A stretch of 62,309 nt of DNA from Chrysochromulina tobinii (taxonomy: Eukaryota): NCBI GenBank assembly GCA_001275005.1, contig JWZX01003208.1, positions 1 through 62,309 on the forward strand, read 5' to 3'. Positions 20,188 through 61,500 of this stretch are shown one piece after another. The translations under genes were made by a program, and so were the position numbers. The notes beneath the pieces were generated by a model. That model was not told where the DNA came from. It did no database searches and saw only the letters and a program-made list of their open reading frames with translations. The first letter of the stretch is position 1. The number at the start of each line of letters is the position of its first letter.

Positions 20188-22649
20188 ATGGCGGAGCCGT
20201 GTCCCATTGGGACCCTGTGCCCACGGCGTGCATCTGCTACACTGATGCCTAATCGTGTCTTTGAAAGCCGTCGTGCTGCCAGGCGAGCGCTGCAGCGCAA
20301 AGCAGCGCTGCAGAGCGGTGCAGCGCCCAATTACACTCCCAGGACCGGTCTGCATCTGGACCCGCATGCGCTGGCGCGTCAGCAGTTGGAGGCGCACGTG
20401 GAATCCACGGCAGCCGCCGCCGTGAGCAGCTTGAGGGCGGCACTCGCGCAAGGGACTGCAAGGCATGCTGCTGCCTCCCAGCCTCCCGATGGGCTGCGCG
20501 AGGCTCTCAGCCAAGACCCTGCGGTGGACGTGGACGAGGCCACGGCGGTGTGGGCGACCGTCTGGCGGCAGGAGGCGCGCCTGAGCGCGGGCGGGCTGAC
20601 TCGACAGGCCAAGCGAGGATGGACTCCGGACGGGCGGTTCCCGAGCGCCTCAGACACCGGCTTTGCGACGCTCTGTGAGCGCTTCGGCCTCGAGGCGCAG
20701 GCGCGGCGGCAGAAGGCGTGGGTGGCCGGCACGGCCCGCCCACGGCGAGTGCTGGCGCTGGCGAATCCGACGGCCCATGAGGGGCTCGCGTGGTGGGTCG
20801 CTCGGGTGGCGGCGGGCATGCTCTGGGTGGCCGGCCGTGACAATCACACCGCCCTCACGATCGGGTACTCGGCGCACGACGTCGAGGATGTACTCAACGG
20901 AGCGATCAGGCCGCGCGGACTCGGCGGCGACCTCGCCAGGGCCATGCGACCTCCCGAGGCGTCATCGGCCTCCCTTGACTGGACGCTCGAGGGCGGCGGC
21001 GCGGCGCTGCTCGCCGGCTGCCACGCGCGCACACGAACGGAGACATGCACCCTGCTACGCGATCGGGTGGACGGCGCCGAGAATCTCGAGCTATCTCGGG
21101 AGCAAGCTCGGCACGGAGGCATCAACATGCTGCTCGCCCGCAACCTGTTCAACATCGGCAGGTGCAGCCGCGAAGGGGTCCGCTTCCTCCGCGCCGCATA
21201 CGGCGACCGTTGGGACCAGTCCCGCGCCGTCCTGAGCGCTCGCGCCAACGCGTCCTCGCCGCCTCCTTCGCTCGAGAAGCGCTTGCGCTCGTCGTTTGCG
21301 CTCGCGGCGGCTTGCTCTCTCCAAGCGAGCCTCGGGCCCGCCCCGTCACTGCACCTCTACGTGGCGAACAATCTCGAGCAATCTCGCGGGGGCTCCCACT
21401 CGGCCCCCCTCAGCACTGCCGTCCACCCTTCCTATGGAGCGATTCGAACGGCCCTGCGCGATGCCGCGACGCTCTCGATTGGCATCTACGTGCGCACGCT
21501 CGCGTCCGAGATCCCCGGAGGCTCAGACTCGGAGGCTCGTCGCCGCTTGGGCTTCAGGCACTGGCCCGCGGCGGAACGCTCCGATGACCTTCGGATGGCC
21601 TCTAGACCTCGGATTGTCTGCCTCATCAGTCCGATGACCTTCCGATGACCTTCGGATGACCTCTGATTGTCTGCCTCATCAGTCCGATGACCTTCGGATG
21701 GCCTCTGATGACCTCTGATTGTCTGCCTCATCAGTCCGATGACCTTCGGATGGCCTCTGATGACCTCTGATTGTCTGCCTCATCAGTCCGATGACCTTCA
21801 GATGGCCTATTTGTCGGATGGCCTCTGTTGACCTCTGATTGTCTGCCTCATCAGGCACTGGCCCTCGGCGGAACGCTCCCATTACCTTGGGATTGCGGCG
21901 TGCGCTCTCGCTCTTGAGACGAGGTGGGCTGCAGGCCTCGAGCGCGGATGGCGGCTGATTGCGCCTGATTGCGCCTGATTGCGCCTTGAGCTCATCAGCC
22001 CGGATCTCCCGCTGAGTGATCGATCGTGATGAACAGTCATTGACAGTGAGTGCGCCTCAATTGCGCCTGATTGCGGAGCAGGTGGGCGCCGGGGTTCGAG
22101 AACGTCGCGTGGTTCGTCGCGTCCGATTCTCCGAGCATCGTGAAGCAGCTCGTGATGGACTTTGACGAAACCCTCGGTGTGAACGGAACGCGCCCCCTCA
22201 CCGGTCGGCGCGCCGTGCTGCACACAGGCGCGGGGGGGCTCCACACACGTTTCGATTTAGATTGGGCGGACCCTACCTGGACGGCGCTCCGCACGGCGCG
22301 CAGCACGCCTGCGGCGGCCGGTGCGCGCCCGGCGACGGCTGGCAGTGTCAACGGCAGCGAGGTGCACGCTCTGCGAACTCGGGCACTCGTCGAAGGGTCG
22401 GCCGATTGGCTGCTCCTCTCCGAGGTGGACACGGCGGTCATCGGGACGATCCAGGACGGGAGTGGCGGGTTCACCTTTGGCACGACGGCGCTGCTGCGCG
22501 GCCTGCGCCTCCGAGGAGTTCGCGCCGCACCCTCATGGAACGACCTCGTGAACGCGGCCAATGCGAGGGATGCGCAGGCCATTGCGCAGCGTTGTGTTCG
22601 GAATGAAGAGGCTCGGATCGTGCCAGCGACGAAGTGTCGCGCTCGCTGA
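20188..22649 (+). CDS. Putative fucosyltransferase-like (GT-B) protein; introns 21558-21854 (GC-AG) and 21924-22081
   Basis: Splicing joins the ORFs in frame via a 69-nt exon; IGIYVR, WFVASDS, DWLLLS, FTFG resemble alpha-1,2/1,6-fucosyltransferase motifs I-III. Confidence 0.55.
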
Positions 22650-22848
22650 GCGTCGATGTTTATGTGACGCGAGAATGCGCCATACATGTATGAACTTGTG
22701 TTCGAGCGTTCGTGTAGCCGCAATGGAAGCGCGCCGTGCCGATACCGCAGGTGAGTTTGTGAGCGCGGTGAGACCGGGACGAAACTGACTGATGATCGGC
22801 TGAGAATCCGGGTCCTGCATCATGAAACGACAATTTCTGCGCGACTGA

Positions 22849-28363: not shown

Positions 28364-28589
28364 CATATCGTCCGCGTACGTGAACGGGAGGCTGGTAGCA
28401 AAAGCCAAGGTGACGAGAGCGGTGTCACACGATCGCTCGCAGTCGTACTAAGTAGTCAGTGATTCAGGCCCTGACTCTGCGCGAGGGGAGGGGCGCGGCT
28501 GGGGGAAGCAGATTGTCGTTTACGAGCATGAGAACGACGTGAGTGTGAATAAATAAATCTCCGAAGAAACTTGCAGTCGACGCTCGCAG

Positions 28590-31292: not shown

Positions 31293-31945
31293 TGCCGCCT
31301 GCCCGCGGGACAGCCCTGTCGTGCCGCGATCCCAAGTGTATCATCCTCTATGCTACGGGCACCTACCAGCCGACGTTGAGCCGCCTTCCAGCCGAGATGC
31401 AGGGGGTTGATTGTCAGCCCCATACGAGAATCGAACTCACGCGCGCGCCCTCCCGGCGAGGCGGCGACACCACGCTCGCGCCGTTTGCATGCGGCCCGAC
31501 GGCATGCTTGGCGAGCCCGCGCTGCCGAGTCACGCCCGCTTGTGCGCGTGGCGTCCTCGGTCCTCGCTGGCACAGAACATGTGTTTCTCTCGGCTCCACC
31601 TCCGTACCGCCCTATGTCTGTGAATGTGTTGCAAAACGGCCTGTAAGAACGCTTCACAGTATAAAGGCGAGGCCTTTCTCCTTTGCACTTACGGTCTTAT
31701 CGTCATTCTCATATTCGGCTCTTTGTTTTTAAATCAAAAATGATCTCGTCCCGCGTGTAACGTTTGGGTCCTATCAATAGGGTTCTATAATCTATATAGC
31801 CGTTAGTTAGCCGTTTTCCAACATGAACGCTTTCGTTTTACCAACCCGGCGCGGACTGCGCGCACCCGCGCAGGCGGTGATCCCACGAGATCCCACGAGG
31901 CACCTGCGGCCCGGTGGGAGTGCCAACTCGCTGCGTGGGTGTCCC

Positions 31946-32822: not shown

Positions 32823-34767
32823 ATGGGCGTCTTGCCGTCGCCCGCCGGCCATCAGGCGGTCGGTGGCGGGAAGGACATCGCCTTCTTCGCGGGCGTCATC
32901 CTGCTCATCAACAACATCACAGGGCCGGGCGTACCTTCCTTGCCGAATCTGTTTGTCGAGGCTGGTTGGCTGCCGCCGACGGCATGCATCATCTGCATGT
33001 GGGTGGTGACGACCCTGAGCGCGTCCATATTTGCCGAAGCGATGGATCGCATCCCCGGCAATGAGGGGTTCAAGGGCCGCGTCGAATTCGTCTCCGTCGT
33101 CGACCATTATTTCGGACGGAGGATGTACGTTGCCAGTCAGATCGGCCTCAACGGCGCGCTCATGTCTCTCAACATCATTTCGGTAATCCTGTCAGCGCAG
33201 GTGATGGACGTGCTGATCTCGGCCCTGTTTGGTAAATCATGCGGCCTCAACCTCACGCCATTTGCCCTGTACAGCAATGCCACGTCCAGCGGCTCTCCCA
33301 TCCCCGGCTCGGATCGTGTCTTCTCATGCATCGACTCGGCTGACCTGAGCCACGGCAACGGCTGGGGCTGTCACATTGTGCTCTCGCTCGGGTACGTGCT
33401 CACCGCGGCGATGGCGATCCCTTGCGGCGCGTGGAACCTCGACGACAACATGATCATCCAAAAGGGCGCCTTTGGCCTCACCGCGTGCTGCTGGCTCATC
33501 TGGATCTTGGCCGCCCTCAGCATGGCCTCGGGTGGTGGCGGTGCTGGTGGCGCTGATGCTGGTGGTGGTGCTGCTGGTGGTGGTGCTGCTGCTGGTGACG
33601 TGGCGGCCTCCGCTGAGCTCGGCCTGCACGCCCTGGTCCGCTCCACCTCCTCGCGGCTGCCCGCGATCAACAACAACCCGCAGCTCGGCTCGGTAGCGGG
33701 CGTGCTCGGTGGCATCCTCTTCAACTTCGGGTTCGTCACCACAGTCCCCTCGTGGCTCGAGATGGCATGCAAGTGCTCACCACGGCGCCATCCCCCCCCT
33801 TTCCCACAGGTTCGTCACCACGGTCCCCTCGTGGCTCAATGAGAAGCTACCGGGCGTGCCCATCAATCGGGCACTCTGGCTCGCGACCACGTTCAGCGCG
33901 CTGCTCTTCGTGGCCATCGGCTTCACGGCCGCTCTGGTCTTCTCCGATGTGCTGCAAGGGCCGGTCACAGCGACGTGCGCGCGCCAGCTCGAGGACCCCA
34001 CCTTTGTCTGCGCCAACGACCTGCTGCAGTTGCTCTCGCAGCCGGCGACCGCGCCGTGGCAGTCGAGCCGGGCGGCAACGACCCTGCTGCAGGCCTCCGT
34101 CTATTGCTTCCCAATCTTCTCGATCGTCTCGTCGATCCCCGTCTTCTCGATCATCATCAAGTATAACCTCATCGAGAATGGCTTCTCGCGCGGCTTCGGC
34201 TTCGCGTGGGGCGTCATCTTCCCGTGGCTCGTCGGCTTCCCTCTGCTCTACATGCCCGACGTCCTCGGGCGCATCATCAACATTACCAGTCTCTTCTTTG
34301 TGTCCTTCTCCAGCTTTGTACTGCCACTCGCCCTCTACGTTGTCCTCCAGCGCAAGGCCGGCCACGTCCGCCTGCAGGCCCAGCCGGGCCTCGGCACCAC
34401 CCTCCTCGGCGGCACACACACGACGAGCACTGCCGAGCACTGCGCGCACACTGCCCCCTCCGCTGTGGGTGTGAATGTGAATGTGGGTGTGAATGTGAAT
34501 GTGACCCTCGCAATGGATGGTCGCGATGCAGGCTCCACCCCGGCGGCGGCGTCGGAGGACGAGGGAGGCTTCATGGCACTCGAGCAGCAAGGGCGCCACC
34601 ATGTGCTGCCACGCTCGTGGACGTGCTGCACGCCGCCCGTCCGCTCCGCGCTCGCGGTGGCCATCGCCATCCTCGTCACCGTGGGCTCGATGACTGCTCT
34701 CTACCTGACGATCACGCAGGGGACGTACGACGTCGATGCGAGCATTTGTGCGACGGTGGGCAACTGA
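32823..34767 (+). CDS. Amino acid transporter (Aa_trans/AAAP family); intron 33731-33809
   Basis: LLINNITGPGVPSLP...AGW; many TM segments; FNFG|FVTTVPSWLNEK after splicing. Confidence 0.85.
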
Positions 34768-34866: not shown

Positions 34867-37800
34867 ATGCCAATGATCGCTGGCCGCGCGGGCGGCGCGT
34901 CGCAGATCATGGCCGCGGTGCGCCGGAGGAGAAAAAAGTCGCCGCCTATCGCGGGCGAGAAGGAGGGCGCCACTCTCGGCCTGAAGTGGAAGGACGTGGG
35001 TGCCAAGCGGCCCACCGAGGGCAAGGAGCTGCAGAATGACGGCCTCTCAAAGGCGCTGCTGCGGCAGAATATGCGCGGCGTTCTGCACTACGTGTTCAGC
35101 GTCGAAGAATTCAAGGAGTTCCACGTTCGCGGCCTCCAACTGAACAGCTTCGTGCGCGCGGGCCCGAGTTACTACGTGCCCGACGAGACGCCCGAGCCCG
35201 AGGAGCTGAAGCCGTGGTTCGTGCGGTGGACGAACAACGTGTTCAACGTTTTGAATTCGCTCTCGCTGCAGGCGTGCCTGTACCTGGTCTTCGTGATCGT
35301 CTTTCAGAACCTCGCGGGCACAATGCGCCGCAGGGAGGAGTACTACATGACGATGCACGTGATGAACAAGTTCGTGACCACGCCATTCGACAGCCAGCAC
35401 AACACGTTCGAGACGATCCGACGCGCTTCGGACATTTATGAGTGGGGCAACCAGGTGCTCTGGCCGGGCTTCTTCGGCGACGCTGGCCCGTGCAACCCCT
35501 TCGTGGGTCTGCCCAACACGCTCCAGAATAAAGGATGCAACGACGACGCGTGGCCCGACGGCGACGGTCCACACCATCTGGTGGGTGCGTCACCGCTCGG
35601 GCTTGACGAGCTGGTGCGTAGGATGGACATGCTCGACTGGACGGAAGGCATCCTGATCAAGCAGGGCCGCGCGGCGCCGCAGAACTGCGCCGGACTGCAC
35701 CAGATCGGGCAGTGCTACCCGGAGCTCGAGAGAGGCATCTACACCTCGTCGACGCAGACGTACGGGTACGTTATGAGCCCGCCCGACGAGACCCTGATTG
35801 CGCCCGACGAGACCCTGATTGCGCCCGACGAGACCCTGATTACACCGGACGAGACCCTGATTGCGCCCGAGAGCTGGTTGTGAGTGCCACACCTGATGGC
35901 CTCCGATGGCCTCCCTCATCAGCTGGTTGTGAGTGCCACCTGATGGCCTCTGATGGCCTGCCTCATCAGGTACAACATCAGCCACCCCGACGAGGAGCCC
36001 GAGATACGATGGAGATACTTCTCAGCTCGGAATCTCGGCGGCAATCCCGGTGGTCAAACCTCGGCGGCGATCCCGTCGATGCGCCAGTACGATACGGACG
36101 GTTTCATTGCGGTCGTCATCCCCTTCTTCTCGGAGATCTATCTCGAGGAGCAGCACGATCTCGTCGATTGGGTCGTCGACTACCGTCTCCACTACGTCAA
36201 CGCGACCAACGGCAAGACGCCACGATACTATTGCGTGCGGCTCTCGCACAACGGGCGCGACATGCATCAGGTGCGTGCGAGACGATTGCGTGGCCATGAA
36301 TGCATATGACAATGACTCATGCATGCTATGCTATGCCTGCATGCATGCAGGTTTGCGACCCAACGACCAATCGGCGCGACGGCTCGGGCAAGATGACCGG
36401 CGTGGTGCGCGCTGCGGTGGAGAACATGTGGAATGACCTCAAGCGTGGCCACTATCTCGATTCGAGATCGCGCGTGCTCACGATCACGCTACAGTACGCC
36501 TTTCTCCTTGATTGCTTCTTGATTGCCTCTTGATTACATCTGGATTACAGTACGCCTTTCCCCTTGATTGCCTCTTGATTGCCTCTTGATTGCCTCTGGA
36601 TTACTTCTGGATTCCCTCTTGAGTGCCGCTGAGGAGCGCTGCTTGCGTCCTTCATCAGGCTCAACTCGAATCACGTGGGCGTGCGATCTCGCTTCACCCT
36701 GATGCTCGAGCTCACCGCCCTCGGAGCGATCTTCCCATCTTACGATGTCGAGACGCGCATCCTGGACGAGGCGGCCCTCGACGACATGCTGCTGTATGCG
36801 CAGATCTCGATGGTGATGGTCGCTTTCTTCGCCATGCTCGAGCTGATCGAGCTCATCCGCCAAGGGCCGATCGACTACGTGCAGAACTTTTGGCACCTGA
36901 TGGACTGGGGAAACTACATCATCTTCCTGCAGGTGTACTTCCAAGTTGTACAGGTACGTGCGGCTCTCGAGCACTCAGACTACCCTCTGATACCCCTCTG
37001 ACACCCCTCTGACACCCCCTGATAACCCTCTGATGGCCCTCTGACACCCCTCTGACACCCCTCTGATGCCCCTCTGATGCCCCTCTGATGCCCCTCTGAT
37101 GCCCCTCTGATGCCCCTCTTGTCGGCGTACCTGATTGCCTCCCTCATCAGGTACGCCAGACCATCGAGAATCCGGACTGCAGCTCGTTCCTGTGCGCCAA
37201 CATCGGCTACTTCGATGATTGGAAGGCGATGGGCGAGTACCGCATCTGCAAGCAGTACCTCGCCCTCTGCGTGTGCCTACAGCTCTTCAAGATCACCAAG
37301 TTCACCAGCCAGCTCGTGCCAAAGATGGGCCTCATGTCGAATGTGCTCCGGCACGCGGCCATCGACATCTTCTTCTTCGCGATCGTCTTCTTCAACTCCC
37401 TCCTCGCCTTCTCGACCATGCTCTACGTGCAGGTGCGCTGATGACCACTGATTACCATTGATGACCCCTGATGACCATGCTCTACGTGCAGATGGGAGTG
37501 CCTCTCTCTGAGTGCCTCTCGGCGTGCTTCTTTCGGAGTGCCTTTCGGATGGCCTTTCGGATGGCCTCTCGGATGGCATGCTGATTGCATCTGCCTGCTT
37601 TGTGTGTTCTGCGTGCAGCTTGGGCCGGTGATGGAAGACTTTTACGACCAAGGGCCCGCGATCGTGTCGCTCTTCCGAGCTCTCTTCGGAGATTTCGATC
37701 TGGATGAGGTGATGAACCAGTCCTCAGGCTACATGAACGCGCTCCTCTTCCTCGTCTACCTCTTTGTCGCGATCTTCATCATGCTCTCTCTCTTCCTCGC

Positions 37801-39060
37801 CATCCTGGCGGAGGCGCAGGCAGCCGTTCGAGAGCGCGAAGCAATCAAGAAGGTCGACGATCCCAACTTCAACGAGTTTGGCGTGATGCACACGTGCTGG
37901 GACTTCCTCGGCTTCGGCTATCGCAGGGTACGCCAGGCGCAGATTCGGGTCTGATTCGGGTCTGATTCGGGTCTGATTCGGGTCTGATTCGGGTCTGATT
38001 TGGTTCTGATTGGGGTCTGATTGCCCTCCTCATCAGGTGCGCCAGACCTTGTATCCCGAGGAGGAGGCCCCCGCATGCAAGTGCTCACCACGACGCCATC
38101 GCTTCTCTCCCACAGGTTCGTCAGACATTGTATCCCGAGGAGGAGGCTCCCGTCGCCGAAGCAGTGCCGGGGCCCGAGCCGCCTCCGACCGTGGACGCAA
38201 TGGTCAAAGATCTCCGGGGCGAGGTCAAGACCATCAGCGAGATTGTGAACACGCTCTGCAGAGAGGTCGTCTTGCTGCGCTCGAATGGCCTCGTCGGCAC
38301 TCCGGAAGGGTGGCTCGCGCCCGACGGCACGCTACGTGGCACCGGCGAGCATGGCGCCCGCGACGACGCCGATGGCGGCGTCGTGAGTGTGGAAGACGCC
38401 CGGCGCATGCGCCTCGGGATACACGCCGAGATACACGCCGAGATGGTGAGTGTGGAAGACGCCCGTCGCATGCGCCTGGTGGTCGAGGGGCTCGATGCGA
38501 AGCTCACCAAGAAGCTCGAACAGATCGACGAGCGTCTCGCGAAGCGTGAGAAGGTGGCCGCGATCGAGCGCAAGGGCCACTTACCGGCCGGTAAGTCGAG
38601 GCCGTCGCCCTTGGTGAACGAGCGCACTGCCGCGGGCGCGGCCAGTGACTTTCAGCCCATCGCCGCACAGAGTTGGTTGGCGGGTACTACGGCCGCAGGC
38701 GGTGGCGTGGCCGCAGGCGGTGGCGGCGGCGACCGCGGCGCTGGCGGCGGCGGCGGCAGAGGGTGTGGGGAGAGCCCCGGTGCGGCGCTGGCGGCGGCGG
38801 CAGCGGCACTGGCGGTGGCGGCCCCGCCGCTGCATGCACGCCCACGCTCGCCTGCCGACCCGCTGCATGCATGCTCTCGCTCGCCTGCCACTCGGCCGCC
38901 CGTCCACTTCTCACCTGAACTCCTCACTTCCACACCAAGCAGCCTGCCGAAGCTGCTTGGGCCACCGACACGCGGACAACTCTTGGGTGCCCCCGACGAG
39001 CACCTAGATCACGCGATGTCACAGTACAGTGGCAAGTCGATCGCCGGCTTGTCAGCGTAG
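34867..39060 (+). CDS. Polycystin (PKD2/TRPP)-like cation channel; introns 35766-35969, 36271-36350, 36494-36658, 36954-37150, 37433-37618, 37928-38115
   Basis: Large extracellular loop ending LKRGHYLDSRSR; WHLMDW; pore SLFRALFGDFD; S6 FIMLSLFLAIL; all six introns preserve the frame. Confidence 0.85.
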
Positions 39061-41353: not shown

Positions 41354-43486
41354 CTAGTCCTCAACCTCGAATAGCGTCGCCTGCGCCTGGCGGAGCACTT
41401 GATAGTCCCTCTCCACCTGCGCCTCGTCCGCGTGAAGCAGCAGCGCGTAGCCTGCACACGTGGCGAGGTCGATGGTGAGAGCCACGTACTCGCCTGGCTC
41501 GCTCGCCTCATACTCGACCCTAATTAGGGAGGGCAGCCCCTCCAAGGGCTCGTCATGCAGCCGTTTCAGCCGACCCTGCACCGGTGAGATCAGCTTCACC
41601 AGACGCGCGGCGCCCAGCAGCGCCGACGCGGGCGCCCGCGGCAGCGCGTTCCACGCAGCTTCGTCAAAGAGGGCGTCGAGGTACGCTTCGAGCTGCGGCA
41701 CACCTCCGCAAGCCCGAACGAGGAACATGCCGCCGTGCCCGTCGCACCCGTTCAGGCGGCCCGCATTCACCTGAGGAGGGAGGCCATCGGAGGCCCATCA
41801 GAGGCGTCGCACCCGTTCAAGAAGCGGCACCGCATGCGTCTCACCCCAATGAGCCGTGGGCCATCAGCATGCAATCACCTCAATGAGCCGTGGGCCATCA
41901 GCATGCAATCACCTCAATGAGCCGTGGGCCATCAGCATGCAATCACCTCAATGAGCCGTGGGCCATCAGCATGCAATCACCTCAATGAGCCGTGGGCCAT
42001 CAGCATGCAATCACCTCAATGAGCCGTGGGCCGTCGACGGTGCTCATCAGCTCGATGTGGGCGGGCCCCCATTGCCAACCTAGAGCATCGAGCGTCGCGA
42101 AGGCGTACTCGACGAGCGCCCTCTCCTTGGGGCCAGCGCATGGCATCAGCTGCGAGCGCAATCAGACATCATCAGCTGCGAGCGCAATCAGACGTCATCA
42201 GCTGCGAGCGCAATCAGACGTCATCAGCCCCAATCTGTCGCAATCAGTCCCAATGCATCAGCCATCTCTTTTGAGCCAGCGTATGGCATGAGCTGACGAG
42301 CGTACTCGTATACATGAACGGCAGCCATAGTAGCATAGCACTCAGTGCTAATTCGTCGTCATCAGTCATCATCAGTCATCAGTGGTCATCAGTGCTAATT
42401 CGTCGTCATCAGTCATCAGCAGTCATCAGTGGTCATCAGCGCTCATCAGCAGCACCCAGTGCTCATTCGTGGTCACCTCTGGCCATCAGCATGCAATCAC
42501 CTGATCGTAATCGTACACGAAAGGCGCGCCGTTCCGCTCGCCTTTCGAATACCGCCAGAGGGCGACCGCCTTGTGCTCGCCCGCACGCGACACCACATCG
42601 ACAACGAACTGCGAGGGCGATCAGTCCCAAATCAGTCCCGATGGAATCCGAGGCAATCAACGCCTATACGACGAATAGCTCCTGCAATCCATGTATCCAT
42701 CGCAATCACCTCCTCTCCCACCAATAGCTCCTGCAATCAGTCCCAATCAGTCCCGATGCAATCCATCGCAATCACCTCCTCTCCCACCAACAGCTCCTGC
42801 ACCACCACCTCGCCGCCACCACGCGCGTCGAGGGAGACTTTGGAGGCCTGGAGCCGGTCGAACATGTGCCGCGCCTGTTCGAGCGAGCGCGCCAGGCCGA
42901 CCATCACGCTCGCCTGCCCTCGTCGAGGCTTGACCACAGCACGCAGCGGCGGCTGCGGCAGCGTGCGCAGAAACGCCTCAGCGGCGGCCCAGCTGCCGGG
43001 CGACGTCTGCTGCACGACGGCCAAGCCAGCGGCGCGTAGGGCCTCGTTGGCCAGGAATTTGTCGCGGCGGGCCGGCAGCACGCCATTCGAGCGCTCCGGC
43101 ACCAGCGCGTGCAGCATGCGCTCCGCATCCGCCAGGCCACCATCGGTGCCGCACAGAACGCCAGCGAACGAGACGTCTCGCGGCAGCACCATCTTGGCCC
43201 AGCCGAGCTCCTCACCGGCTGGTGGCACTTCGTTTGCGCGCACGCGCTTCACGACTGCGTCATCGGCTTCGCCAGCGTCACGGCACAGCATGTCGGCGAT
43301 CGCCGATGAATGGACCTGCACACACAGCGCGCCGCGACGCTCGGCCTCGCTGAGAACGCTCATGCGCTCGCCTGCCTCTGCCGGAGGATCCACGTACAAA
43401 AACGCCAGCGGCGATGCGGTTGTGAATTTGCTGACAGTGCAGACGAAACACAAGACCGTCGCGACGAGCCGGAGGTCGGTCGCCAT
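41354..43486 (-). CDS. ATP-grasp ligase (L-amino acid ligase/carnosine synthase-like), multi-intron
   Basis: RRDKFLANEAL, VVKP, VVQELLVGEE, VVDVVS, GPAHIE, GPRLIE|VNAGR; last intron 41771-42014; middle exon boundaries not fully resolved. Confidence 0.8.
41848..42032. repeat. 34-nt tandem repeat, 5 units plus a partial, spanning an exon/intron junction
   Basis: aatgagccgtgggccatcagcatgcaatcacctc at period 34. Confidence 0.95.
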
Positions 43487-46194: not shown

Positions 46195-49100
46195 TCATTG
46201 TTGGATGAACTTGCGATGGCTATCGAAGGCGACGCGCTTGAAGAGCTCGATCGTGCCGGTCGCCTCAAGGATCGGGATGCCGTAGCCGGCGGCGGTGACC
46301 GTCCCGATGGAGTCGAAGGCCGTCACGATGCCGTCGATGAGCGGAAAGTGCCCGTTCGTCATCACGGGCGAGTGCAGCCCCTTCTTGCTCGCAGTGGCCA
46401 TCTTGGTCACGGCGGAGGGCATGGCCGCGCCGGTGGTCGATGAGAGCCACAAGGTGTCGCCCAGCTCAATCTCGCCCGCCGTCTTGAGGGTGGCGCAGCA
46501 GGACGGGCCAACCGGCACGTGGTGCTCCTCAGTGAGGGTTACATTGCGGCCGGCAGCCGTCGAGAGCACGAGGAACGTCGACACCGCGTCCTCGTCGGCG
46601 AGCGAGAGAGCGCTCACGGTATCGGTGGTCAGGACGCCCTCAGCCGTGGCCACGACGATCTCGTCGCCCACCTGCACAGCATCGAGCGAGCGCTTGGCGC
46701 CACTAGCCAGCACGACGGTGGCCGAGGAGGGGAAGCAGGGTAGCCCGTCGCTGTTCTCCTTTACCGACTCATAGGTGACGATGGATGCTGTGGACACGCT
46801 GCCTCCAGTGAGAACTACGATCTGGACGCCGGGCACGGAGGCGAAGGCAGCTTGCAAATTGCCTAGACTCAGGTCGGCAGTGTTCATGGCGGTCTGCGCG
46901 GTGGCTGCGGCCTCCTGGCTGCCAAAGCTTTGCGAGAAGCGGAGGGTCGATGTGGCCTGGGTTGATAGGCGCCGTCGATACGCGGCGCCGGTGGCATCAT
47001 CAACGATGGTCAGAGTCCGCGTGGGTGCGCCCGCACCGAGGGGGAATGCGCCGTTGAAGGCTGCGAGGAGGGCGGGCTTGCTGCTCGCCAGCGTGAGCGC
47101 TTGTGCCTGCACACTCGTGCTGACCTCAACGATGTACCGAACGACCTCGACTTGGCCTGCTCCGATGGTCGGCGGCCGCGCTGGCGGCGAGGGCGGCGGC
47201 GGCGAGGGCGAGGGCGGCGGCGGCGAGGGCGGCGGCGGTGAGGGTGAGGGCGGCGGCGGAGAGGGCGCCGGCGGTGGCGAGGGCGAGGGCGGGGGCGGCG
47301 AGGGCGCGGGGGGCGGCGAGGGCGCTGGGGGCGGCGAGGGCGAGGGCGGGGGCGGCGAGGGCGCGGGCGACAGTGTTGCACACGTCGTTCCGAATGCAGC
47401 GCCGCACGTACACACGCCGCCGTTGCATGTATCGAGGCCGTTACATGCGAGTCCGGGGCACTCGTGCGGTGAGCAAAGCAGGAACAGCGCCAGCTCGGGG
47501 CACTGGATGCTACCGGTAAAGCCGAGGGAGCTCGGTGGCGTGACGAAAGCCCCAGGGCTCGGGCAGGTGAGCCAATGCTCTACGCCACTGGCGGCGAGCA
47601 CCCTCAGCTGCAGTGCGCCTGCGGAGCAGCGGGTGACGTGGCAGGCGCTTCGGACGGGCTCGCTGGTGCGATAGTTGTTGATGACTTGCGAGAGCGAGCT
47701 ATTGACGCAGCGCCCGCCAGTGCCAAAGGTCTCTCCGCGAAAGTTCTGCGAGCTCGAGGGCGCATTCGGCGTCTCGTCACACTCGCCATTCGAATAGCTC
47801 CGAAAGATGGGGCAGTAGTCGGACACGGCTATCGAACCGCCTAGGCTCGGGTTGGCGCTGAAGTACTGATAACCCACGGGCAGCGCAGAATTGTACGTGA
47901 CGAGATTGCACTGGCCGCGTGCGGCGTGGTCGGCCGTGCACCTGTCATCAGAGGTTATCGGCGGTTATGAGCGGTCATGAGCGGTCATGAGCGGTGATCA
48001 GTGGTCATCAGTGGGGTCGGCCGCATGCACCCGTCTTGTTGAGCCACGTTGCAGAAGCCGTCCTGTGCTACGCCGCTGCTGTCGATGCACCGCTCCGTCG
48101 CCCACGCACAGCCCGCATTCCGGCCGTATACGAGTGGCTCCGCCATGCTCCAGTTGGCACGGTACCTGCGCGAGGGGAGGTAGCCATCAGAGGTAGCCAT
48201 CAGAGGTAGCCATCAGAGGTAGCCATCAGAGGTAGCCATCAGAGGTACTGTGGCTCTAAGGGGCAGCCTTCAGAGGCATCGAGCAGAGTCATCGGGGAGA
48301 GAGGCAATGAGAAGAGTCATTGGGGAGAGAGGTAATGAGAAGAGTCATAGGGGAGAGAGGCAATGAGAAGAGTCATAGGGGAGAGAGGCAATGAGAAGAG
48401 TCATCGGGGAGAGAGGTAATGAGATGAGTCTTCGGGGAGAGAGGTAATGAGACCCCTTCGGCGTGCGGGGGCGGTAATGAGGTAATGAAAGGTAATGAGA
48501 GGTAATGAGAGGTAATGAGAGGTAATGAGAGGTAATGAGAGGTAATGAGAGGTAATGAGAGGTAATGAGACCCCTTCGGCGTGCGGAGGCGGCGCGCACC
48601 AGCCGCTGTCCTCGAGGGCTGCGAGCGTGAGCGCCGAAATGAAAGAGTTATGCGACGCCGTCGACGCCATCATCTCTTGTGGGAAGAGCCGTTGCTCCCA
48701 GTGGGAACCGAAGCAGCTGCCGCTTGTGGTGGGCTGGTTCTCGAGCTCTGGGCCTTCGAGTGTGCTGCAGCCGAGGAGGTCGCGCGCAACCGCGACTACC
48801 TTGGGCGTGACCATGCGGTTCACGATCACGCCGCGCTCCTGCCTGACCAGAAGCGTGCTCGCGCTGGGCGCCCTCACAGTGCGGGTCACACCGTCGGTGC
48901 ACAGGGTTGGCGTGAGCGCAGGCAGACCGTCCGCCCCGCGCGGTGTGCGCGGGGTGCCATCCTGGTGGCGGAAGAGCGCCCAGGAATCCGTCGAAAAGCC
49001 GAGCGCGTGCAGGAGCTCGTGCACCTGATGAGGATGGTCATCAGAGGTCATCAGTTGGTCTTCAGAGGTCATCATCAGTTGGTCATCAGAGGTCATCAGA

Positions 49101-49847
49101 GGTCATCAGAGGCACAGGCTCGTGCACCGCAGTACTCAGTTGGTCTTCCCACGCGCTCGAACTCGACGAGAGCGCCACCGGACAGAAGTTTGCCTGACCC
49201 ATGATCGGTCGATCGTATTGATCGCGCACACACGTGGAGGCGTACGCGAGCGTGCCATCGCCGGCCGACGCCGGGCAGCTGCCCGTGGTCGCCGACGTGA
49301 CATACAAGACAAAGTCTGCGTTGCTCACGCCTGTGCCGTTGGCCGAAGTGGTGCAACTCGACGGATTGCACGTGCCGTCTGCGTTGCACGAACTGCAGGT
49401 CTGCAGACTGTTGAGCAGATAGTCGGCCACGGCCGCCGACGTCCCGTCCGGCATGTAGCCGCAACGCACTGGCTGGCCCACGCTCGCGCATGGCGAGCCA
49501 GCCACCTGCCATGTCGAACCGCAGTTGCGATTGACACGCAGCGGTCCCTGCACACGCACGACTGACAACGCTCGAGAGAGCACCGAGACGGCCGCGGGCA
49601 CAAGCGTGTTCATCAAGAAAGATTGCCTGGCGCTATCGAGCGCCGCTAGGTTCTGCGTGATGACGTGAATGCGGATGGGCTCGTAGCTGTTGCTCGTCGT
49701 CCGCCGGCCGTGGCCTGTGGGCTCGTAGTACTCCTGCGCTGCAAAGTTGTATGGAGGTGCTGGAATCTCGTCGTGTGCGCAGTGATGATTGTGATGGCGG
49801 CCGCATGCCACGCTCAGCATCAGGAATATTAAGAAGACTGCTTCCAT
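46195..49847 (-). CDS. Secreted leishmanolysin (peptidase M8) + Cys-rich + Pro-rich stalk + C-terminal Hog-type Hint domain; introns 49025-49127, 48166-48599, 47942-48030
   Basis: Signal peptide; HCAHD; RDQYDRP; HELLHALGF; SHWEQR; LEDSGWY; DYCP; (SPPPP)n; Hint CFP...VQVGD...LTEEH...GLHSP...DG. Confidence 0.9.
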
Positions 49848-52522: not shown

Positions 52523-53348
52523 GATAGCTCGCGCCGCAACAGCTCGACAGACCGCGGGGCTTGTGCTCTGTGCGGACACACAAATCGACGACTTGTGTCG
52601 GCACCGAAGTGCCGCGGACCGCGGTCGGTGTCTGCCCGCAAGACGGCGTGCGTTCCTCTTTGCCGCAAACCGTCCTAAAAGTCGGCAGTCGGTTGGTACC
52701 GGTAAAAAGACACTGGGGGGAGCAACCGGTACTGTACCGGTACAGGCTAGACTGTGACCACGATGTGCGCGTGAAACCGTGAATACACAGGGTCCCCGCT
52801 TTTTTCAGATCCTCGTGTCGCCATCCGCGGGCAGGGTGATGTGACGAATCACGATCGAGGTGTTCGAAATCAAGCAGTCTTTTATCGCTGTTCACTCCAC
52901 ACATCTTTGCCACAATCCCGTGAAATAGCCCCGTAATAGCCGCTCGGCTTCATCAGCAGAATGTGTTGAGAGCGCGTCCTCACAACCAGCCGGCCGCCGC
53001 GCATCCCACAGGCGGCGCGAAAACTGGCAGGAGCCACTCGCACGCGTCCATGCCGTGTAGGGCGCCACGCTCGCGCCCGGCCCCTTAAGTACTTCTGCCC
53101 TCGGGCCGCCCATCTGCATCGCATCTCGCCAAATCTGGCCCCTGACCTCCATCCCTGTGAACCCTGCTGTGCCTCGATCCAACACCTAGTGCGCACCGCG
53201 GGCAAGCCGCGGCGCACTGCCGCTGCGCCTCTGTCTCAGCACCTCTCACTTGTACATGCAACGAAACTCCAGCAAGCCGAAGGCTCCGCTGTGCGACTTG
53301 CCCGAGAGTTGGCAAGACCATGTGATGAACAATTGATAGTACGCATCA

Positions 53349-55421: not shown

Positions 55422-56688
55422 CTACTCGGCGCTCAGCACGCGCCACGACGAGGACGCGGGTGGCATGGCCTGCGCCACGCGCTCCGCCGTCTTGGGCGCC
55501 GCGCCGTGCAAGATGAACAAGAAGAGATCCCACAGGCTCTCCGCGTCCGCCGAGGGCGCCGTCCCGAGCTGCGCGCCGCCGCCACCGCCGGTGGCGGCCG
55601 CGGTGGCGGCGGCAGCTCGACTGCTCGCGCGCACCTGATGAGGGAAGCAATAGTTGGTCATCATTGGTCATCAGTGGTCATCAGCACACCGCGCTCGACT
55701 GCTCGCGCGCACCTGATGAGGGACGCCATCAGAGGCAATCAGAGCTCTTCGGCCATGGCACTCAACGGCTCGAGCGCACCTCGGCAAATTCCTCCGAGGC
55801 TGCTAGGATGATGGCTCCGGTGGCGGTCACGGCAAAGGTGGAGACGAGGTAGACCGCGGCGATGTCGAGCTTGAGTAGCCCCTCGGGCAAGGTGCTCAGG
55901 CCCGTCAGGTAGCGCGAGGGGAAGGACCACACGCCCTGCTGCTGCCCCACGCAGTCGATGCACACCGTCCACATCCCCGGCGGCAGCCAACTCGACACAA
56001 ATAACCGCCAGTGCGAGCGGAGATAGCGAGCTCCCAGGTTCCAAACGACCGCGAACACGGGCGCGAAAAAGGTGGCGATGAGCCCGAGGCACTTGTGATG
56101 GTCCTCGTCGCCCGCAAGCGCCGCCAACCCCGCGAGCGTCATCGCCGCCAGCACGGCATTGCCCGCGGCGCGCACCGAATCGGCCATTGGCGCTGGCGTG
56201 CCGTCGGGCGCGGCGGTGAGAGTCCACTCAGACATCTTGAGTGTCCAGAGCGCGGCCTTGATGACGTGGTGGAAGAGCCACAGGATCTCCTCGAGCGGCA
56301 GCAGCGTCGCCGCACCCAGCCCGGTCACCTTCGCGGGATTGAAGGTCCAGATGCCAATCTGTGCCCCGACCGAATCCCAGACAAAGGCCTGACCGACGGC
56401 GATGGTGAGGATGAAGGCGAGGTAGGCGAAAGAGGCGGTGGTTTTCAGCGGGTCGCGCTCGTCGTTGAGCATCGTTGGCTTTCCGGCCGTGAGCAGCCAG
56501 AGCGTGGGCAAGAGCAGGAAGCCGTGCAGGTCCCAGTAGGAGAGCTCGAGGCCTCCACTCGCCACGAAGCCGGGGCCGTCCCAGCCGGACGAGCCGAATG
56601 CGACGCAGGTGGGTGGCAGCGTGCGCGGGGCCATGGACAAGCCGGCCGTGGCCATCGGCGCGAGCGAAGGAAATCTCAAGATGCGCAT
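55422..56688 (-). CDS. CrtYcd/CarR-type membrane lycopene cyclase domain protein; intron 55635-55779
   Basis: Two hydrophobic repeats: WDSVGAQIGIWTF...LPLEE and IDCVGQQQGVWSF. Confidence 0.7.
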
Positions 56689-56941: not shown

Positions 56942-58189
56942 ATGTTCGGCATGCCTGGCGCGTCTCCGGAGCTCGTCTCCATGAGGGCTGGCAAGGCCAA
57001 CCTGGAGGGTACCACCGTCACGTCCGACCCGAGGAAAGGGTGCGCACCACGCCGCCTTCTGCACCTGCGCCTGCGCCTCCTGCGCGCCCGCTCGTGCGCG
57101 CGCATTGGGCCGTGGCGCGCTCATCGATTACCCGTGTGCTGTGCCGCGCAGCTTGCTCATAATGCGCAAGTCGGACGACGGCCTCACGCACCTCATCTGG
57201 AAGGACCGCGTCGCCAACTCGGTGGTGGACGACCTGATCGTCTTCGAAGGCGACGCAAAGATCCAGCGCGTGGAGGAGTGCAAGGACGGCTTCTGCATGC
57301 TCATCGCGTTCGCTGCGGGCGGCCGCAAGCTCTTCTTCTACTCCCAGGAGCCACGTAAGAAGGGGAGCGATTGGGAGGACGTGAGCAAAGAGAAGGACCT
57401 CATGGACAAGTTCCACAGGGTGCTTACGGGCGAGTCCGCGACGGCACGGGAGGGGACTGGTGCGCTCGGCATGACGCAGGCCGAGCTGCTTGCGATGCTC
57501 GGCGGCACCGTCGCCCCGCCAGCGCCCGCCGCGCCCGCCGCGCCCGCCTCCTCCGCCGCTCCCGCCGCTGCGGCGGGCGCGGCGCCCGCCTTCTCCGCCG
57601 ACGCGATCTCGAGCATCCTCGGGGGGCTGGGGCCCGCAGCAGGGCCGCCCGTCGCCCTCAACGACGTCCTACGCGCGGAGGACGTCGTGCCGAAGGTGGA
57701 TGAGGCGATGGAGGCGGCGCTCGCCGAGCACCTGCCCAGCGGAGACAGCGCGGCGGCGACGCTCTCGACGCCGCAGATGGCCCAGGTGCGAGATACGCCC
57801 GAGATCGCGCGAGATATGCCCCGCCCACGTGCACATGCACCTCCACTCCCCCTCCCCTGCCCAGCTCCCCGCTGTATACCCCCTCCCAGCCCGCGCCCTT
57901 CTCGCGCGACAAGGCGCCTTCTCGCCTCCTCGAGTGCCTCCGATGCGCGCCAGAGTGCCCTCCGAATGGCTCTGATTGGCCCTGATTGGCCCTGATGAAC
58001 GGCCAGGCGGCCATGCGCTTCAACGAGGCACTCTACCAAGGAGATGCGTTTGGCCTGATGCGCGAACTAAACCTCAATCCGACTGGACCGGGCCTTGAGC
58101 CCTTTCTGCGGGCGTTGCAGGCTTCCACGGACGCGGCGAAAGCGAAGGAGGAGGAGGAGGAGCCGGTCGACAAGATGGATGAGAGCTGA
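56942..58189 (+). CDS. RPN13: Proteasome ubiquitin receptor Rpn13/ADRM1; introns 57040-57151, 57786-58006
   Basis: Pru domain RAGK...DPRKG|LL...DGLTHLIWKDR...DDLIVF...FFYSQE; C-terminal HLP...LSTPQ...F..AL. Confidence 0.9.
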
Positions 58190-58565
58190 GCGCGCCGAGA
58201 TGAGCGCGCCGTCGAGAGGTCCGACCGTCTGTGAACCTTGGCTGTGAACCTTGCCTGTCGACCTTTTGGCCGGCCACGGAGAGTGGAGAGGGACGCGACG
58301 TCGTGCGCATCCGTTTCGGCTCACGGCTCACGCGACAAGCGCAGAGCGGGCACAAGAGCCAGGGTTGGCCGTTGACAGTTCCGGAGCGGACGTACCGTCT
58401 TCTGCCCCAGGTAAAGTGCACCGACGGCTGTTGCGCCATAAAGAAGCGAAAACCAAGGCGCCCTCACCGCACGGAGTTACACACGAAAATCCGTCTAACG
58501 ATTAAGATAACATGTGACCGTGCGGTTCAGTCCTCGCTCGCGCGACAGCCGCGCACTGACGGTCA

Positions 58566-61500
58566 TCACTTCGTGAATTCGTAATCGTCGGGATTCGTCA
58601 TCTTCGTGATTGCTGATTCCATCGTCAGCGCGAAGGATCCGTGCCCGCCCACCCCCTCCTCCGCGTCGTCGCACGGCTCTACGTGGGCGAGTCGTGGCTC
58701 ACGCTTGCGAAGATGAGGGACGTCATCAGTCGTCATCAGTCGTCATCAGTCGTCATCAGGCTCTACGTGGGCGACGTGGCTCTCGCTTGCGAAGATGAGG
58801 GACGCATCGCGCTTGAGGACGAGCCCATCGCGCCAGCGCATGCCGCGTGCGTCCTCGCGGGGGCGCAGTCCCTGGCCGCGATTGAGCACGCACAAGACGG
58901 CGCGCATACTCGCGCCCCCGCCCGCCGCCCCCGCCCCCGCCCCCGCCCCCGACTTACCGGTACTGACCGCGGCGGCGCTGGCGTTGGCGTTGGCGGCGTT
59001 GGCGTTGGCGGTGGCGGCGGCGGCGGCGGCATCGGCGCTGCCACTCTGAGGGTCGAGATAGATTGCATGCGGCGGGCCTGCTAACGGTCGGCCGAAGAAC
59101 TTGGAGTTCGGGTCCGCTTCGTATTTGAACAAGCAGAGCTCGGCGCCCGCGACGGCGGCGAGCTGTCGGCGCTCGGCTTCCCCAAGGTTGGAGAGGCCAC
59201 TGCCCACGCGCCCGCGGCGAGGGCGGTACACGCCGCATTTGGCAACTGAGGCATCGGTCCGGAGGCCGTCAGGCGCGGTGGCTGGCGAGGTGAAGCCGTC
59301 GAACGCGCCCCCGCCGCCGTCGTTCACACCTCCGCCGCCGTCGTTCGCGCCTATGTTGCTGTCGTTCGCGTCGCCGCCGCCGTCCGCGCCCCCGCCGCCG
59401 TCGTCCACGCTGTCGTTCACACCTCCGCCGCCGTCCACACCTCCGCCGCCGTCGTCCACGCTGTCGGCCGTTTCGGAATCGCCTTTCATCCGGCGAGCCT
59501 GCGCTTCACACTCGAGTGAGTGTGAACATGCGACCTGCACCCGCCGAAGCATGCCTCGCAGTGCAGCGGCGGCCGCCTCGGGCGAAGCCCCGTCGGCAGG
59601 GGCAGCACGGGCGTAGAGAAAGGCCGCCACAAGCTGCAGCGTCTCGGCGCGCCGCTGCGCGAGATCGAGCGGAGATCGAGCGGAGATCGAGCGGAGATCG
59701 AGCGGAGATCGAGCGGACGCCAGGTCAGAGGGCAATCAAGGACGTCATCGGGGGTCATCAAGCACGCAATCAGGGTGGACGATGAGGTTGGCAATCAGGG
59801 GGGGGGGGTACGCAGGTAGAAGAAGAAGATGATGATGATGGCAGCCATCACGAGGGCACTCGAGCGCACCTGCACGTCAAGCAAGTCCTCATACCGAATC
59901 GCGAGCAGCGGCGTGCGAGTGCCCAGCCAATAGCGATGGAACGCCGCCCACACGGCCGCCTCCCGATGGACGTGCTCACGCCACTCGTCACGAAGACGGG
60001 TGTACTCGGTCGCACGCACGGAGCGCGTGTGGCTCTTGGTCAGAACCATATTCCAATACGAGTCGATCGCATCCACCGGGCTACGCACGAGGAGCACCGC
60101 CGCATGCACTCGCACCTGGGGGGGGCGAGGGGCGAGGGGAACGAGGGGCGAGGGGGGGCGCGCGCCGTGGTGACCGATGCATGCCGAAGGGTGGCGGAGA
60201 CTCGCGCGCCGTGGTGAGCAGATGCATGCCGAAGGGTGGCGGAGACGCGCGCGCCGTGGTAAGCACTCGCATGCGCGCGTCGTCGCGGCACACGCACCTC
60301 GGCCGCGCCGCGCCTCTCGGGCCAATGGCTCTTGACGAGCCAGACGCGACCATCCGAGATGCCCTCCGCCGCGAGCCCAAAGGCCGCCAAGTCGCGCGAG
60401 AGGGGCGCGTCTGCGTGCCCATCAGAGCCAGTGAGGATACCGGTACAGGACTCAAGGAGAGAGCGAAGTAACGAATTCCCAGAGCGGGGGTAGGAGACGA
60501 GGGCTACCTGCCGTGAGATGGGCGCCATGGTGAGCACATGCATGCAGAGCGGGGGTAGGAGACGAGGGCTACCTGCCGTGAGCGCTCGTGCGGCGCGAGA
60601 AAGCGTGCTGGCGCCAATCTCGCTGCAGCTCCCGTCACATCATCATCGTCATCATCCTCGCCGCCTTCCTGCGTGCCCAACAACAACAGCGACGACGCCG
60701 CCGCCCGGCCGCCGACTCCGTCGTCCAGCGCAGTCGGCGGATCGGCCGCAAGCCGCATCACTGCAAGCTCGTGCGCCGTCAGCCGTGCCTCCAGCTCGGC
60801 GTCCGACCCCCAATCTCCCCAATCGAGCTCCAAGGCTGCCGCCGCCACCGCTGCCGCCTCCATTTCCATGCCTGCATAGGGACGTCCAGCAGCAGCAGCG
60901 GCGGCGGCGGCGGCGGCGGCGGCGTCCTTGGCACGTCTCCATTCGTCGAGTCGAGCGCGTCGCTCGTCTCGCTCGGCTTCGGCACGGCGCGCCGCCTCGG
61001 TCTGTGCACTGGCGTCCTGAGCGCGCTTGCTCGCACGCCAGGCGGGCAGTTGAGATCTCCTCTCCGATATCCAACGCTGGAGTGCAGCAGTCGCAGCGAG
61101 GTGGCGCTCGAGTGCCGCCTCGGCCTCGCGACGTGCGCGGGCCTCGGCGAGTGCGGCCGCGTGCTCTGCGTCCTCGGCCGCTGCCTCGAGGCGCTCCTGC
61201 CGCCTGATGAGGGAGGCAATCCGACGGAGTTAATGAGGGAGGCAATCGGACGGAGTTGATGAGGGAGGCAATCGGACGGAGTCCATCGAGGCACACATGG
61301 GGTCACCAGAGGCACACATGGGGTCATCAGAGGCAGCTCTCACCGCTCAAGCCAGCGCTCGCGCCGCTGTCGCGTCTGCTCACGCGTCGCCTCCTCCGCC
61401 GCGGCCGCGAGGGCTGCGGCGTCCGCGGCTGCCTGCTGCTGTGTGCGCCGCTCCTCCTCTTCGAGGGCGCGCCGCTGCGCCATCGCGGCCTCGGCTGCCT

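What the first reader, a model, noticed from the sequence alone, without database searches (positions are those of the whole stretch)
21558..61340. Intron family B: CTGAT-microsatellite introns, many ending CCTCATCAG, with an age series of exon duplicates
Seen: introns at 21558, 21924, 35766, 36954, 37928, 47942, 49025, 55635 and ~61204 are filled with CTGATG/CTGATT repeats of differing unit length. Most begin with a copy of the next exon, ranging from near-exact (21558) to diverged: WAAGLE vs WAPGFE, YVMSPPDE vs YNISHPDE, VRAALEHSDY vs VRQTIENPDC. Others copy the upstream exon end (19141-19225, 37433). Inference: a long-running process, with repeats built from branchpoint-like CTGAY words.
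Basis: partly seen in the sequence, partly recalled or inferred. Interest (0 to 1): 0.75.

Follow-up and report, generated by a model that had tools for sequence, protein, structure and literature searches.

The report
Self-copying introns with long site duplications
Most introns in this stretch of a Chrysochromulina alga's genome consist of a 10-55-base copy of the gene's own neighbouring sequence plus a short, strand-specific filler shared by many other introns, likely made when repair synthesis briefly copies an existing intron, which would be a transposon-free way to gain introns on a genome scale.

Summary
The window is from the Chrysochromulina tobinii/parva complex. 22 of 25 placed introns carry family words: B (10-11-mer CTGAT repeats, often ending CCTCATCAG) or A (a ~45-nt branch/acceptor cassette). 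17 of the 22 hold a flanking-exon copy. RNA contigs support 13 introns. In 128 more loci plus the window, 103 of 199 acceptors have an upstream copy (about 2 expected). Copies are 10-55 nt and run from exact to under 80% identical. Genomic orthologs lack all nine positions tested, and one carries A and B introns elsewhere in the same gene, so these are gains. One copy keeps ancestral residues. Three splice geometries, non-spliceable cases, junction microhomology (4.8 vs 1.35 nt) and sense orientation (90 vs 2) point to template-switch repair that copies existing introns. A retroelement-type insertion is the main rival. Corrections: 61204 has no copy, 37928 ends at 38115, only 6 of 9 named introns end CCTCATCAG, and identity versus age is untested (one proxy failed). 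No enzyme or de novo event was seen. A published introner survey lists none for C. tobinii.

The parts
21558..21854 (+). GC-AG intron, family B; starts with 24/25 copy of next exon (similarity runs on to about 39 nt into the first repeat words); 52-nt tandem expansion; ends CCTCATCAG
   Evidence: ORF restored; no RNA laid
21924..22081 (+). family B intron, diverged next-exon copy
   Evidence: no RNA laid
19141..19225 (+). family B intron in SMC-like gene; donor from filler, acceptor from 15-nt copy of upstream exon end
14094..14159 (+). family A intron in TauD-like gene, 12-nt next-exon copy
33731..33809 (+). family A intron in amino-acid transporter gene, 28-nt copy with 1 mismatch
35766..35969 (+). 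family B intron 1 of polycystin-like gene; diverged copy; 21-nt units that include exon-derived letters
36494..36658 (+). family B intron without detectable exon copy
36954..37150 (+). family B intron; old copy that keeps two ortholog residues lost from the exon
37433..37618 (+). family B intron with exact 19-nt internal copy of upstream exon end
37928..38115 (+). two-layer intron: B layer (to 38036) then A layer with its own 36-nt next-exon copy; spliced as one
41771..42014 (-). family B intron in ATP-grasp gene; 34-nt units of filler plus upstream-exon copy, then next-exon copy
42150..42500 (-). family B intron with a central diverged copy of both sides of the exon junction
42609..42775 (-). 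family B intron with internal upstream-exon copy; shares its acceptor words with 42150
47942..48030 (-). family B intron in leishmanolysin-like gene, next-exon copy
48166..48599 (-). long family B intron, several expansions, no detectable copy
49025..49127 (-). family B intron, 10-nt exact next-exon copy, ends CCTCATCAG
55635..55779 (-). two-layer family B intron: outer diverged copy, inner exact 19-nt copy
   Evidence: no RNA joint listed
57786..58006 (+). Rpn13 intron with B words near the acceptor, no copy
   Evidence: RNA joint, 2 of 3 RNA runs
58676..58804 (-). 45-nt duplication around a CTGATGACGA filler, no exact splice register; returns at an 11-nt match to the B acceptor word; at the end of a reading frame
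   Evidence: an RNA contig runs unspliced into the filler
59655..59869 (-). family B intron, no copy
   Evidence: RNA joint, 2 of 3 RNA runs
60116..60297 (-). family A intron with 45-nt tandem units, diverged next-exon copy
60508..60572 (-). 65-nt family A intron inside an exact 38-nt duplication (10 nt of it upstream of the donor)
   Evidence: RNA joint, 2 of 3 RNA runs, 38 letters fit both sides
61204..61343 (-). family B intron ending CCTCATCAG, no significant exon copy
57040..57151 (+). control: plain Rpn13 intron with no family words and no copy (also 29557-29675)
   Evidence: RNA joint, 3 of 3 RNA runs

Best explanation
These are spliced introns at positions that relatives lack, each built from a 10-55-nt duplicate of the host gene plus a filler shared with many other introns, likely made in one step by microhomology-guided template switching during repair synthesis. 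Inferred steps: (1) at a break or stall in a transcribed gene, synthesis jumps to an existing family intron, mostly elsewhere in the genome and sometimes nearby, and copies about 45-60 nt; (2) it rejoins the gene upstream of where it left through a few matching bases, which creates the duplicate; (3) products last in coding DNA when a GT/GC donor and an AG acceptor fall in exact register and the total reaches about 65 nt: donor from the duplicate and acceptor from the filler, the reverse, or both from the duplicate; (4) each new intron is a new template, and B/A acceptors are nearly always followed by GT/GC, so rejoining would tend to land on a usable donor; (5) afterwards the 10-11-mers expand by slippage, events recur at the same junction, and the intronic copy decays. 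The strict sense orientation suggests an RNA template or transcription-coupled strand choice. Shown: splicing, duplicates, shared fillers, absence in orthologs, microhomology, strand bias. Not shown: enzyme, template molecule, any de novo event.
For: Copies: 66 of 138 acceptors in the searched set and 103 of 199 in the wider set exceed the 99th percentile of mismatched controls. Lengths 10-55 nt, median 24, no fixed size. After the acceptor, 131 of 138 read GT/GC, with the G set by the search pattern; unselected A acceptors 86% of 28 vs 14% of all YAG. Of 35 clean young events, 27 have an exact splice register vs 23% simulated, in three geometries, and 8 have none. Rejoining microhomology 4.8 vs 1.35 nt (p 5e-12), leaving junction 2.5 vs 1.6 (p 0.007); 4.3 nt for 18 rejoinings away from splice sites. 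Sense 90, antisense 2 (one a miscall, one a chance match), 4 ambiguous among arrays with a strand call. 21 of 21 window arrays or A motifs lie in genes. Intron-naive ORF calls on contigs of up to 9-131 kb run straight across the three ATP-grasp and six polycystin positions. P0018 reads through an A and a B intron at other positions. Fillers within 800 nt are somewhat more alike than fillers of different loci (p 0.01-0.02). Repeat number differs between alleles or strains. DNA depth over B repeats is hundreds of times single copy.
Against: No enzyme or exact template locus was found, and no whole genome was available. No presence/absence polymorphism in 5 aligned pairs or in run X21, which was shallow. 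For the commonest geometry the rejoining microhomology overlaps the donor consensus, so selection inflates it. The vocabulary used for the test comes from loci chosen by a B acceptor. Family A has a fairly constant core and 3' end, as a discrete element would. 5 of 22 family introns show no copy. Of 347 arrays, 251 got no strand call (edge, word-rich flanks or low coding score). The window's arrays cluster in 10 genes, so their absence between genes is weak evidence alone.
Confidence: 0.5

Rival explanations
1. A and B are short non-autonomous retroelements (or intron 3' tails) inserted by target-primed reverse transcription with a non-LTR element's enzymes; the duplicate is a true target-site duplication, and 5' truncation and slippage give the variety.
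For: Variable-length duplications, a constant 3' end at the AG, a variable 5' end, and stronger microhomology at the 3' junction are what such insertion gives (established knowledge). One Pavlovales introner family is classed non-LTR.
Against: Many events rejoin in the middle of a repeat word or begin with a donor cassette, with no fixed end. No poly(A) tail or longer parent was seen in the printed fillers. Random-orientation and intergenic copies are missing.
Confidence: 0.25
2. Two steps: plain tandem duplication around AG|GT makes the intron, and repeat words arrive later by gene conversion or slippage and are kept as splicing signals.
For: Some events have both splice sites inside the duplicate, the classical geometry (PMC3443670). 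Repeat number is labile.
Against: Exact duplicates already carry full fillers, and most duplicates (median 24 nt) are far below the shortest intron seen (65 nt), so a filler-less intermediate would likely be unspliceable. In the commonest geometry the acceptor comes from the filler. My searches required family words, so filler-less cases would not have been seen.
Confidence: 0.1
3. Old introns were patched with spliced-mRNA sequence (aborted intron loss), so the exon copy is a repair scar at an ancestral position.
For: 42150 and 41771 hold copies of both sides of the exon junction, and events recur at the same junction (37928, 55635).
Against: All nine positions tested are absent from genomic orthologs, including one at 62-85% identity. 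The two plain introns have no copy. Duplication plus filler also occurs away from splice sites.
Confidence: 0.07
4. A DNA transposon makes them: a cut-and-paste miniature element, or an HUH element such as a Replitron, whose type member gives variable duplications at RG targets and fuzzy ends.
For: CCTCATCAG is the reverse complement of CTGATGAG(G), so B can look like a short inverted repeat. Replitron-1 has variable duplications and orientation-specific RG targets, and one Replitron protein is reported from C. tobinii (bioRxiv 2022.12.15.520654).
Against: No fixed duplication length, no fixed left end, no end-to-end identity between copies. Cassettes fold no better than shuffles (z -1.0 and -0.2). 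No terminal direct repeat was seen.
Confidence: 0.08

Closest known systems
Introners that co-opt a splice site from the target-site duplication (Aureococcus, Symbiodinium, Polarella classes 4/5 and 6/8/10, Chrysochromulina sp. MAG; PMC9860276 and bioRxiv 2020.10.14.339549, passages read)
   Same: One splice site from the duplicate and one from the insert, exact mRNA restoration, phase-0 bias (35:12:18), many copies, gene bias.
   Different: Published duplications are 3-9 nt and fixed per family, and copies are alike end to end. Here they are 10-55 nt and variable, ends are not fixed, three geometries share one vocabulary, and layers stack. The 2022 survey filtered out microsatellite-like families; the 2025 table lists 0 families for C. 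tobinii.
Emiliania huxleyi introner fam24 (PMC12130899 supplement row)
   Same: Haptophyte, about 68 nt, co-opts 5' and carries 3' site, noted '10bp terminal direct repeats', mechanism unknown.
   Different: Five copies; I saw no sequence, so a relation to A or B is unknown.
Intron gain at staggered double-strand breaks in Daphnia pulex (PMC4202315, passages)
   Same: New introns with an exon-end direct repeat, and repeated later events inside young introns.
   Different: Repeats 4-12 bp in 33 of 90 introns; the passages read name no shared insert family. Here a genome-wide shared, sense-only filler and longer duplicates.
Intron gain by tandem genomic duplication of AGGT (PMC3443670; Cryptococcus repeat expansion PMC2395259)
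   Same: The geometry with both sites inside the duplicate; later slippage.
   Different: No foreign filler in that model; here the filler supplies length, branch-like words and often a splice site.
Strand-biased 10-11-bp tandem repeats in E. huxleyi introns (Read et al. 2013, Nature; recalled, paper not held)
   Same: As recalled: 10-11-nt period, intronic, strand-specific, haptophyte.
   Different: As recalled, descriptive only, with no link to exon duplicates or intron gain. I could not check the text.
Replitron-1 of Chlamydomonas (bioRxiv 2022.12.15.520654, passages)
   Same: Variable-length duplications, orientation-specific insertion at RG, variable extra sequence from the parent locus.
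   Different: 0.9-3.6 kb elements with fixed termini and a transposase; not reported there as introns.

Membership tests
Spliceosomal (GT/GC-AG) intron | Removed from RNA at GT/GC...AG ends, restoring the frame | tested here: met
   4 direct joints, 6 by exact length, 3 by contig coordinates; the rest by ORF only
Spliceosomal (GT/GC-AG) intron | Branch point at the CTGAT/CTCAC words | not testable with these tools
   A motif lies 22-33 nt from the AG; no lariat data
Introner (transposon-derived intron family) | Recent gain at many unrelated, lineage-specific positions | tested here: met
   9 of 9 positions absent from genomic orthologs; A and B at other positions in P0018
Introner (transposon-derived intron family) | Copies similar from one intron end to the other | tested here: not met
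   Only part of each intron is shared; starts or ends are locus-specific copies and B fillers vary
Introner (transposon-derived intron family) | Splice site co-opted from a target-site duplication | tested here: met
   27 of 35 clean events in exact register
Introner (transposon-derived intron family) | An autonomous element or enzyme that mobilises it | not testable with these tools
   No genome held; no transposase or RT recognised by eye among ORFs at 49.8-53.4 kb, which were not scanned against a library
Cut-and-paste DNA transposon / MITE | Fixed short duplication and terminal inverted repeats | tested here: not met
   10-55 nt duplications, no fixed left end, no stable fold
Non-LTR retroposon / SINE | Variable duplication with constant 3' end and truncated 5' end | tested here: inconclusive
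   Fits A and type-1 B events; does not fit events that end mid-word or carry only a donor
Non-LTR retroposon / SINE | Insertion in both orientations and between genes | tested here: not met
   90 sense vs 2; 21 of 21 window arrays in genes
Microhomology-mediated templated insertion (theta-type or replication template switch) | Microhomology at both junctions | tested here: met
   4.8 vs 1.35 and 2.5 vs 1.6 nt
Microhomology-mediated templated insertion (theta-type or replication template switch) | Insert traceable to a specific template, often nearby | tested here: inconclusive
   Modest excess similarity within 800 nt, none beyond; no genome to trace templates
Microhomology-mediated templated insertion (theta-type or replication template switch) | Dependence on the repair polymerase | not testable with these tools
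   Needs genetics

The most novel reading that the evidence does not exclude
Introns propagate in this alga without any transposon. Intron RNA (pre-mRNA or excised intron) templates repair of transcribed genes, and because each product again places an acceptor next to a GT/GC, the process feeds itself and has built most of the genome's introns. It would also explain the strand-biased 10-11-nt intron repeats of haptophytes, and each intron would carry a dated fossil of its own exon.
Probability: 0.3. Interest if true: 0.9.

Novelty: new variant of a known kind. Interest (0 to 1): 0.72.

Why it matters
Where new introns come from is a long-standing question, and transposon-derived introners are held to be the only genome-scale source (PMC12130899). 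Here is an abundant gain process in a cultured alga that the published surveys would filter out by design and that fails the introner membership test on end-to-end identity and fixed ends. Every event leaves its own clock (intron copy versus exon) and its own junction record, so mechanism, rate and age can be tested on many introns. [quoted passage not shown]

Tried and rejected
Assembly artefact: rejected; the stretch is in 12 DNA and 6 RNA runs and in another assembly at 99.98%. Copies taken from a paralog under protein selection: rejected, no codon-position bias (8.8, 7.5, 10.5%, p 0.45). Donor optimisation concentrated in the first 6 nt: not seen (7.4 vs 9.7%). CpG-specific decay: not seen (p 0.47). 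Filler length as an age proxy: no relation. Duplicate and filler length are inversely related in 27 young introns (rho -0.69), but this is partly built in by how filler is defined, so I use it only as a hint of a size floor. Presence/absence polymorphism: none in 5 pairs; X21 too shallow. Viral contigs: 0 matches. Rfam: 0 matches. The first read-laying (85% likeness) was swamped by repeats and listed no true splice joints. The GC-poor 50-52 kb region showed no recognisable mobile-element ORF by eye. Two catalogue boundaries used (60575, 59868) were corrected by RNA to 60572 and 59869. Dropped rows: 73 of 211 matches as duplicates or too near an edge; 62 of 261 acceptors with words downstream and 25 nested copies; 24 redundant records. 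Ten literature searches and motif searches in two supplements (files 13-14 of PMC12130899 not searched, the PMC9860276 file is cut, bioRxiv supplements not seen) found no description of this system. Subscription papers, including Read 2013 and Huff 2016, were not available, so absence from print is not established.


Full report
Setting. The window is eukaryotic, about 65% GC. Its Rpn13 exon is 99% identical over the aligned part to a protein named Chrysochromulina tobinii, and a C. parva protein differs mainly by one indel, so it belongs to that haptophyte species complex. No whole genome was held. I placed 25 introns by restoring reading frames; the list was built while looking for this pattern and probably misses some plain introns. 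The hosts are ordinary genes: polycystin-like channel, leishmanolysin-like protease, SMC-like, TauD, amino-acid transporter, Rpn13 and an ATP-grasp protein.

Are they introns? Yes where tested. An RNA contig spans 34858-35764 and 38115-38635 with 1,330 letters between, against 2,350 in the genome; the six predicted introns sum to 1,020 and give a 1,057-residue frame. Four more have direct joints in 2 or 3 of 3 RNA runs, including 60508-60572, where 38 letters fit on both sides. Contig coordinates fit 47942, 48166 and 49025.

Anatomy. 22 of 25 introns carry family words. B is a set of 10-11-nt words of the type CTGAT(T/G)(G/A)C.., often ending CCTCATCAG. A is a roughly 45-nt cassette with a GCTCACCACGGCG core, a pyrimidine run and CCCACAG. 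They occur together in single introns (37928) and are joined at other loci. 17 of the 22 hold a copy of a flanking exon end, and 0 of 2 plain introns do. For the named set, 7 of 9 start with a significant copy, 37928 has it in an inner layer and 61204 has none; 6 of 9 end in CCTCATCAG.

Generality. Of 138 distinct acceptors, 131 are followed by GT or GC (the G was part of the pattern) and 66 have an upstream copy above the 99th percentile of controls. Taking all A and B acceptors, 103 of 199 have one (A 25 of 43, B 78 of 156); the 78 first-layer cases have copies of 10-55 nt (median 24) in introns of 65-291 nt (median 84). They come from the window, from assemblies like the window's and from other metagenome records. 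DNA depth over B and A words reaches 1,000-34,000 per bin against about 45 for single-copy DNA.

Gain, not patching. Homologous ORFs on long contigs run without a break across all three ATP-grasp positions (P0009, P0010, P0011, P0016, P0019; contigs up to 9-131 kb; also P0017 and P0018) and all six polycystin positions (P0023 at 62-85% identity on a 12-kb contig, P0004/P0026 up to 63 kb, P0058). That these calls ignore introns is inferred from read-through in P0006, P0009, P0017 and P0018. P0018, at 47% identity, reads through one A intron and one B intron at positions the window lacks. The vocabulary is therefore shared across species while the positions are not.

Age. Identity runs from exact (23 of 78) to below 80% (5 of 78, detection-limited). 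Differences lean to A/T in the intron copy (74 vs 39) with no codon-position bias, as neutral decay predicts. At 36954 the copy reads VRAALEHSDY, the exon VRQTIENPDC and the ortholog VVDAIEHPDC: the copy keeps A and H that the exon lost. This is one case.

Mechanism. Among 35 clean events with an exact duplicate of 16 nt or more, 27 have an exact splice register against 23% in simulation. The script classed 13 as donor from the duplicate, 3 as acceptor from it and 11 as both inside it, and I judge about 4 of the 11 to be of the first kind. 8 have no exact register. The window's own example, 58676-58804, rejoins at an 11-nt match to the B acceptor word. Junctions match the family vocabulary more than controls, more so where the insert rejoins the gene (4.8 vs 1.35 nt) than where it leaves (2.5 vs 1.6); away from splice sites the rejoining mean is 4.3 nt. 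Arrays are in the sense orientation (90 vs 2 of those callable; neighbours within 600 nt agree in 221 of 232), and all 21 in the window lie in genes, which cover 79% of it by my annotation; they cluster in 10 genes, so this last point is weak alone. Nearby fillers are slightly more alike. Repeat number varies between strains or alleles, while no intron was polymorphic in 5 pairs. I read this as single-step templated insertion by microhomology-guided template switching from existing introns, filtered for spliceability, then slippage (0.5). Target-primed insertion of short retroposed cassettes is the main rival (0.25). The two overlap if the template is intron RNA.

Comparison. It works like an introner that borrows a splice site from its target duplication (PMC9860276; bioRxiv 2020.10.14.339549; passages), but fails membership on end-to-end identity and fixed ends, and its duplicates are several times longer and variable. 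It resembles break-repair gain in Daphnia (4-12-bp repeats; PMC4202315) but with a shared, sense-only filler. The 2022 survey removed low-complexity families, the 2025 table gives C. tobinii 0 families, and a five-copy E. huxleyi family with 10-bp direct repeats is the nearest entry. The C. tobin genome paper passages mention only about one intron per gene. I recall strand-biased 10-11-bp intron repeats from the E. huxleyi genome paper but could not read it. An earlier unchecked note on another piece of this genome reached a similar footprint (e1-2577349); it is not independent support and lowers the novelty within this scan.

Verdict. A real, abundant and apparently undescribed variant of duplication-linked intron gain. 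The architecture and the gain are well supported; enzyme and template are inferred. Interest 0.72.

Noticed in passing
window 49920-50700 and 52690-52745: About 730 bp of 22-31-nt tandem units upstream of the leishmanolysin-like gene; a similar motif recurs in inverted orientation near 52700, bracketing a GC-poor 2.7-kb segment with a 504-codon ORF of unknown family, possibly an inserted element.
   Followed up: partly
window 46195-49847 (-): Leishmanolysin-like protease fused to a proline-rich stalk and a C-terminal Hint domain; RNA and DNA contigs show paralogs of the Hint part.
   Followed up: no
window 125-3500 and 28686-31570: Two different genes (GTPase-like; ADP-ribosyltransferase-domain) share a C-terminal 10-residue repeat and a similar downstream region with plain-looking introns; related stretches occur in L012, L013 and L016.
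   Followed up: no
window 42150-42775 (-): Adjacent introns of the ATP-grasp gene share unusual donor and acceptor words, suggesting copying in cis.
   Followed up: partly
window 59661-59717: An 11-nt GAGATCGAGCG-type array inside a B intron, a different word class that resembles repeats I recall from E. huxleyi introns.
   Followed up: no
window 36271-36350: Intron rich in TGCATGCA words without clear A or B structure; its position is also absent from orthologs.
   Followed up: partly
L067 4141-4230: The one B array with an AT-rich, apparently non-coding upstream flank, followed by an A-type acceptor; possibly a UTR intron or a non-genic event.
   Followed up: no
P0017, P0018, P0009, P0006, P0061-P0065: Database proteins that read through introns; peptide traces of A and B could be used to screen protein collections for the range of this system.
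   Followed up: partly
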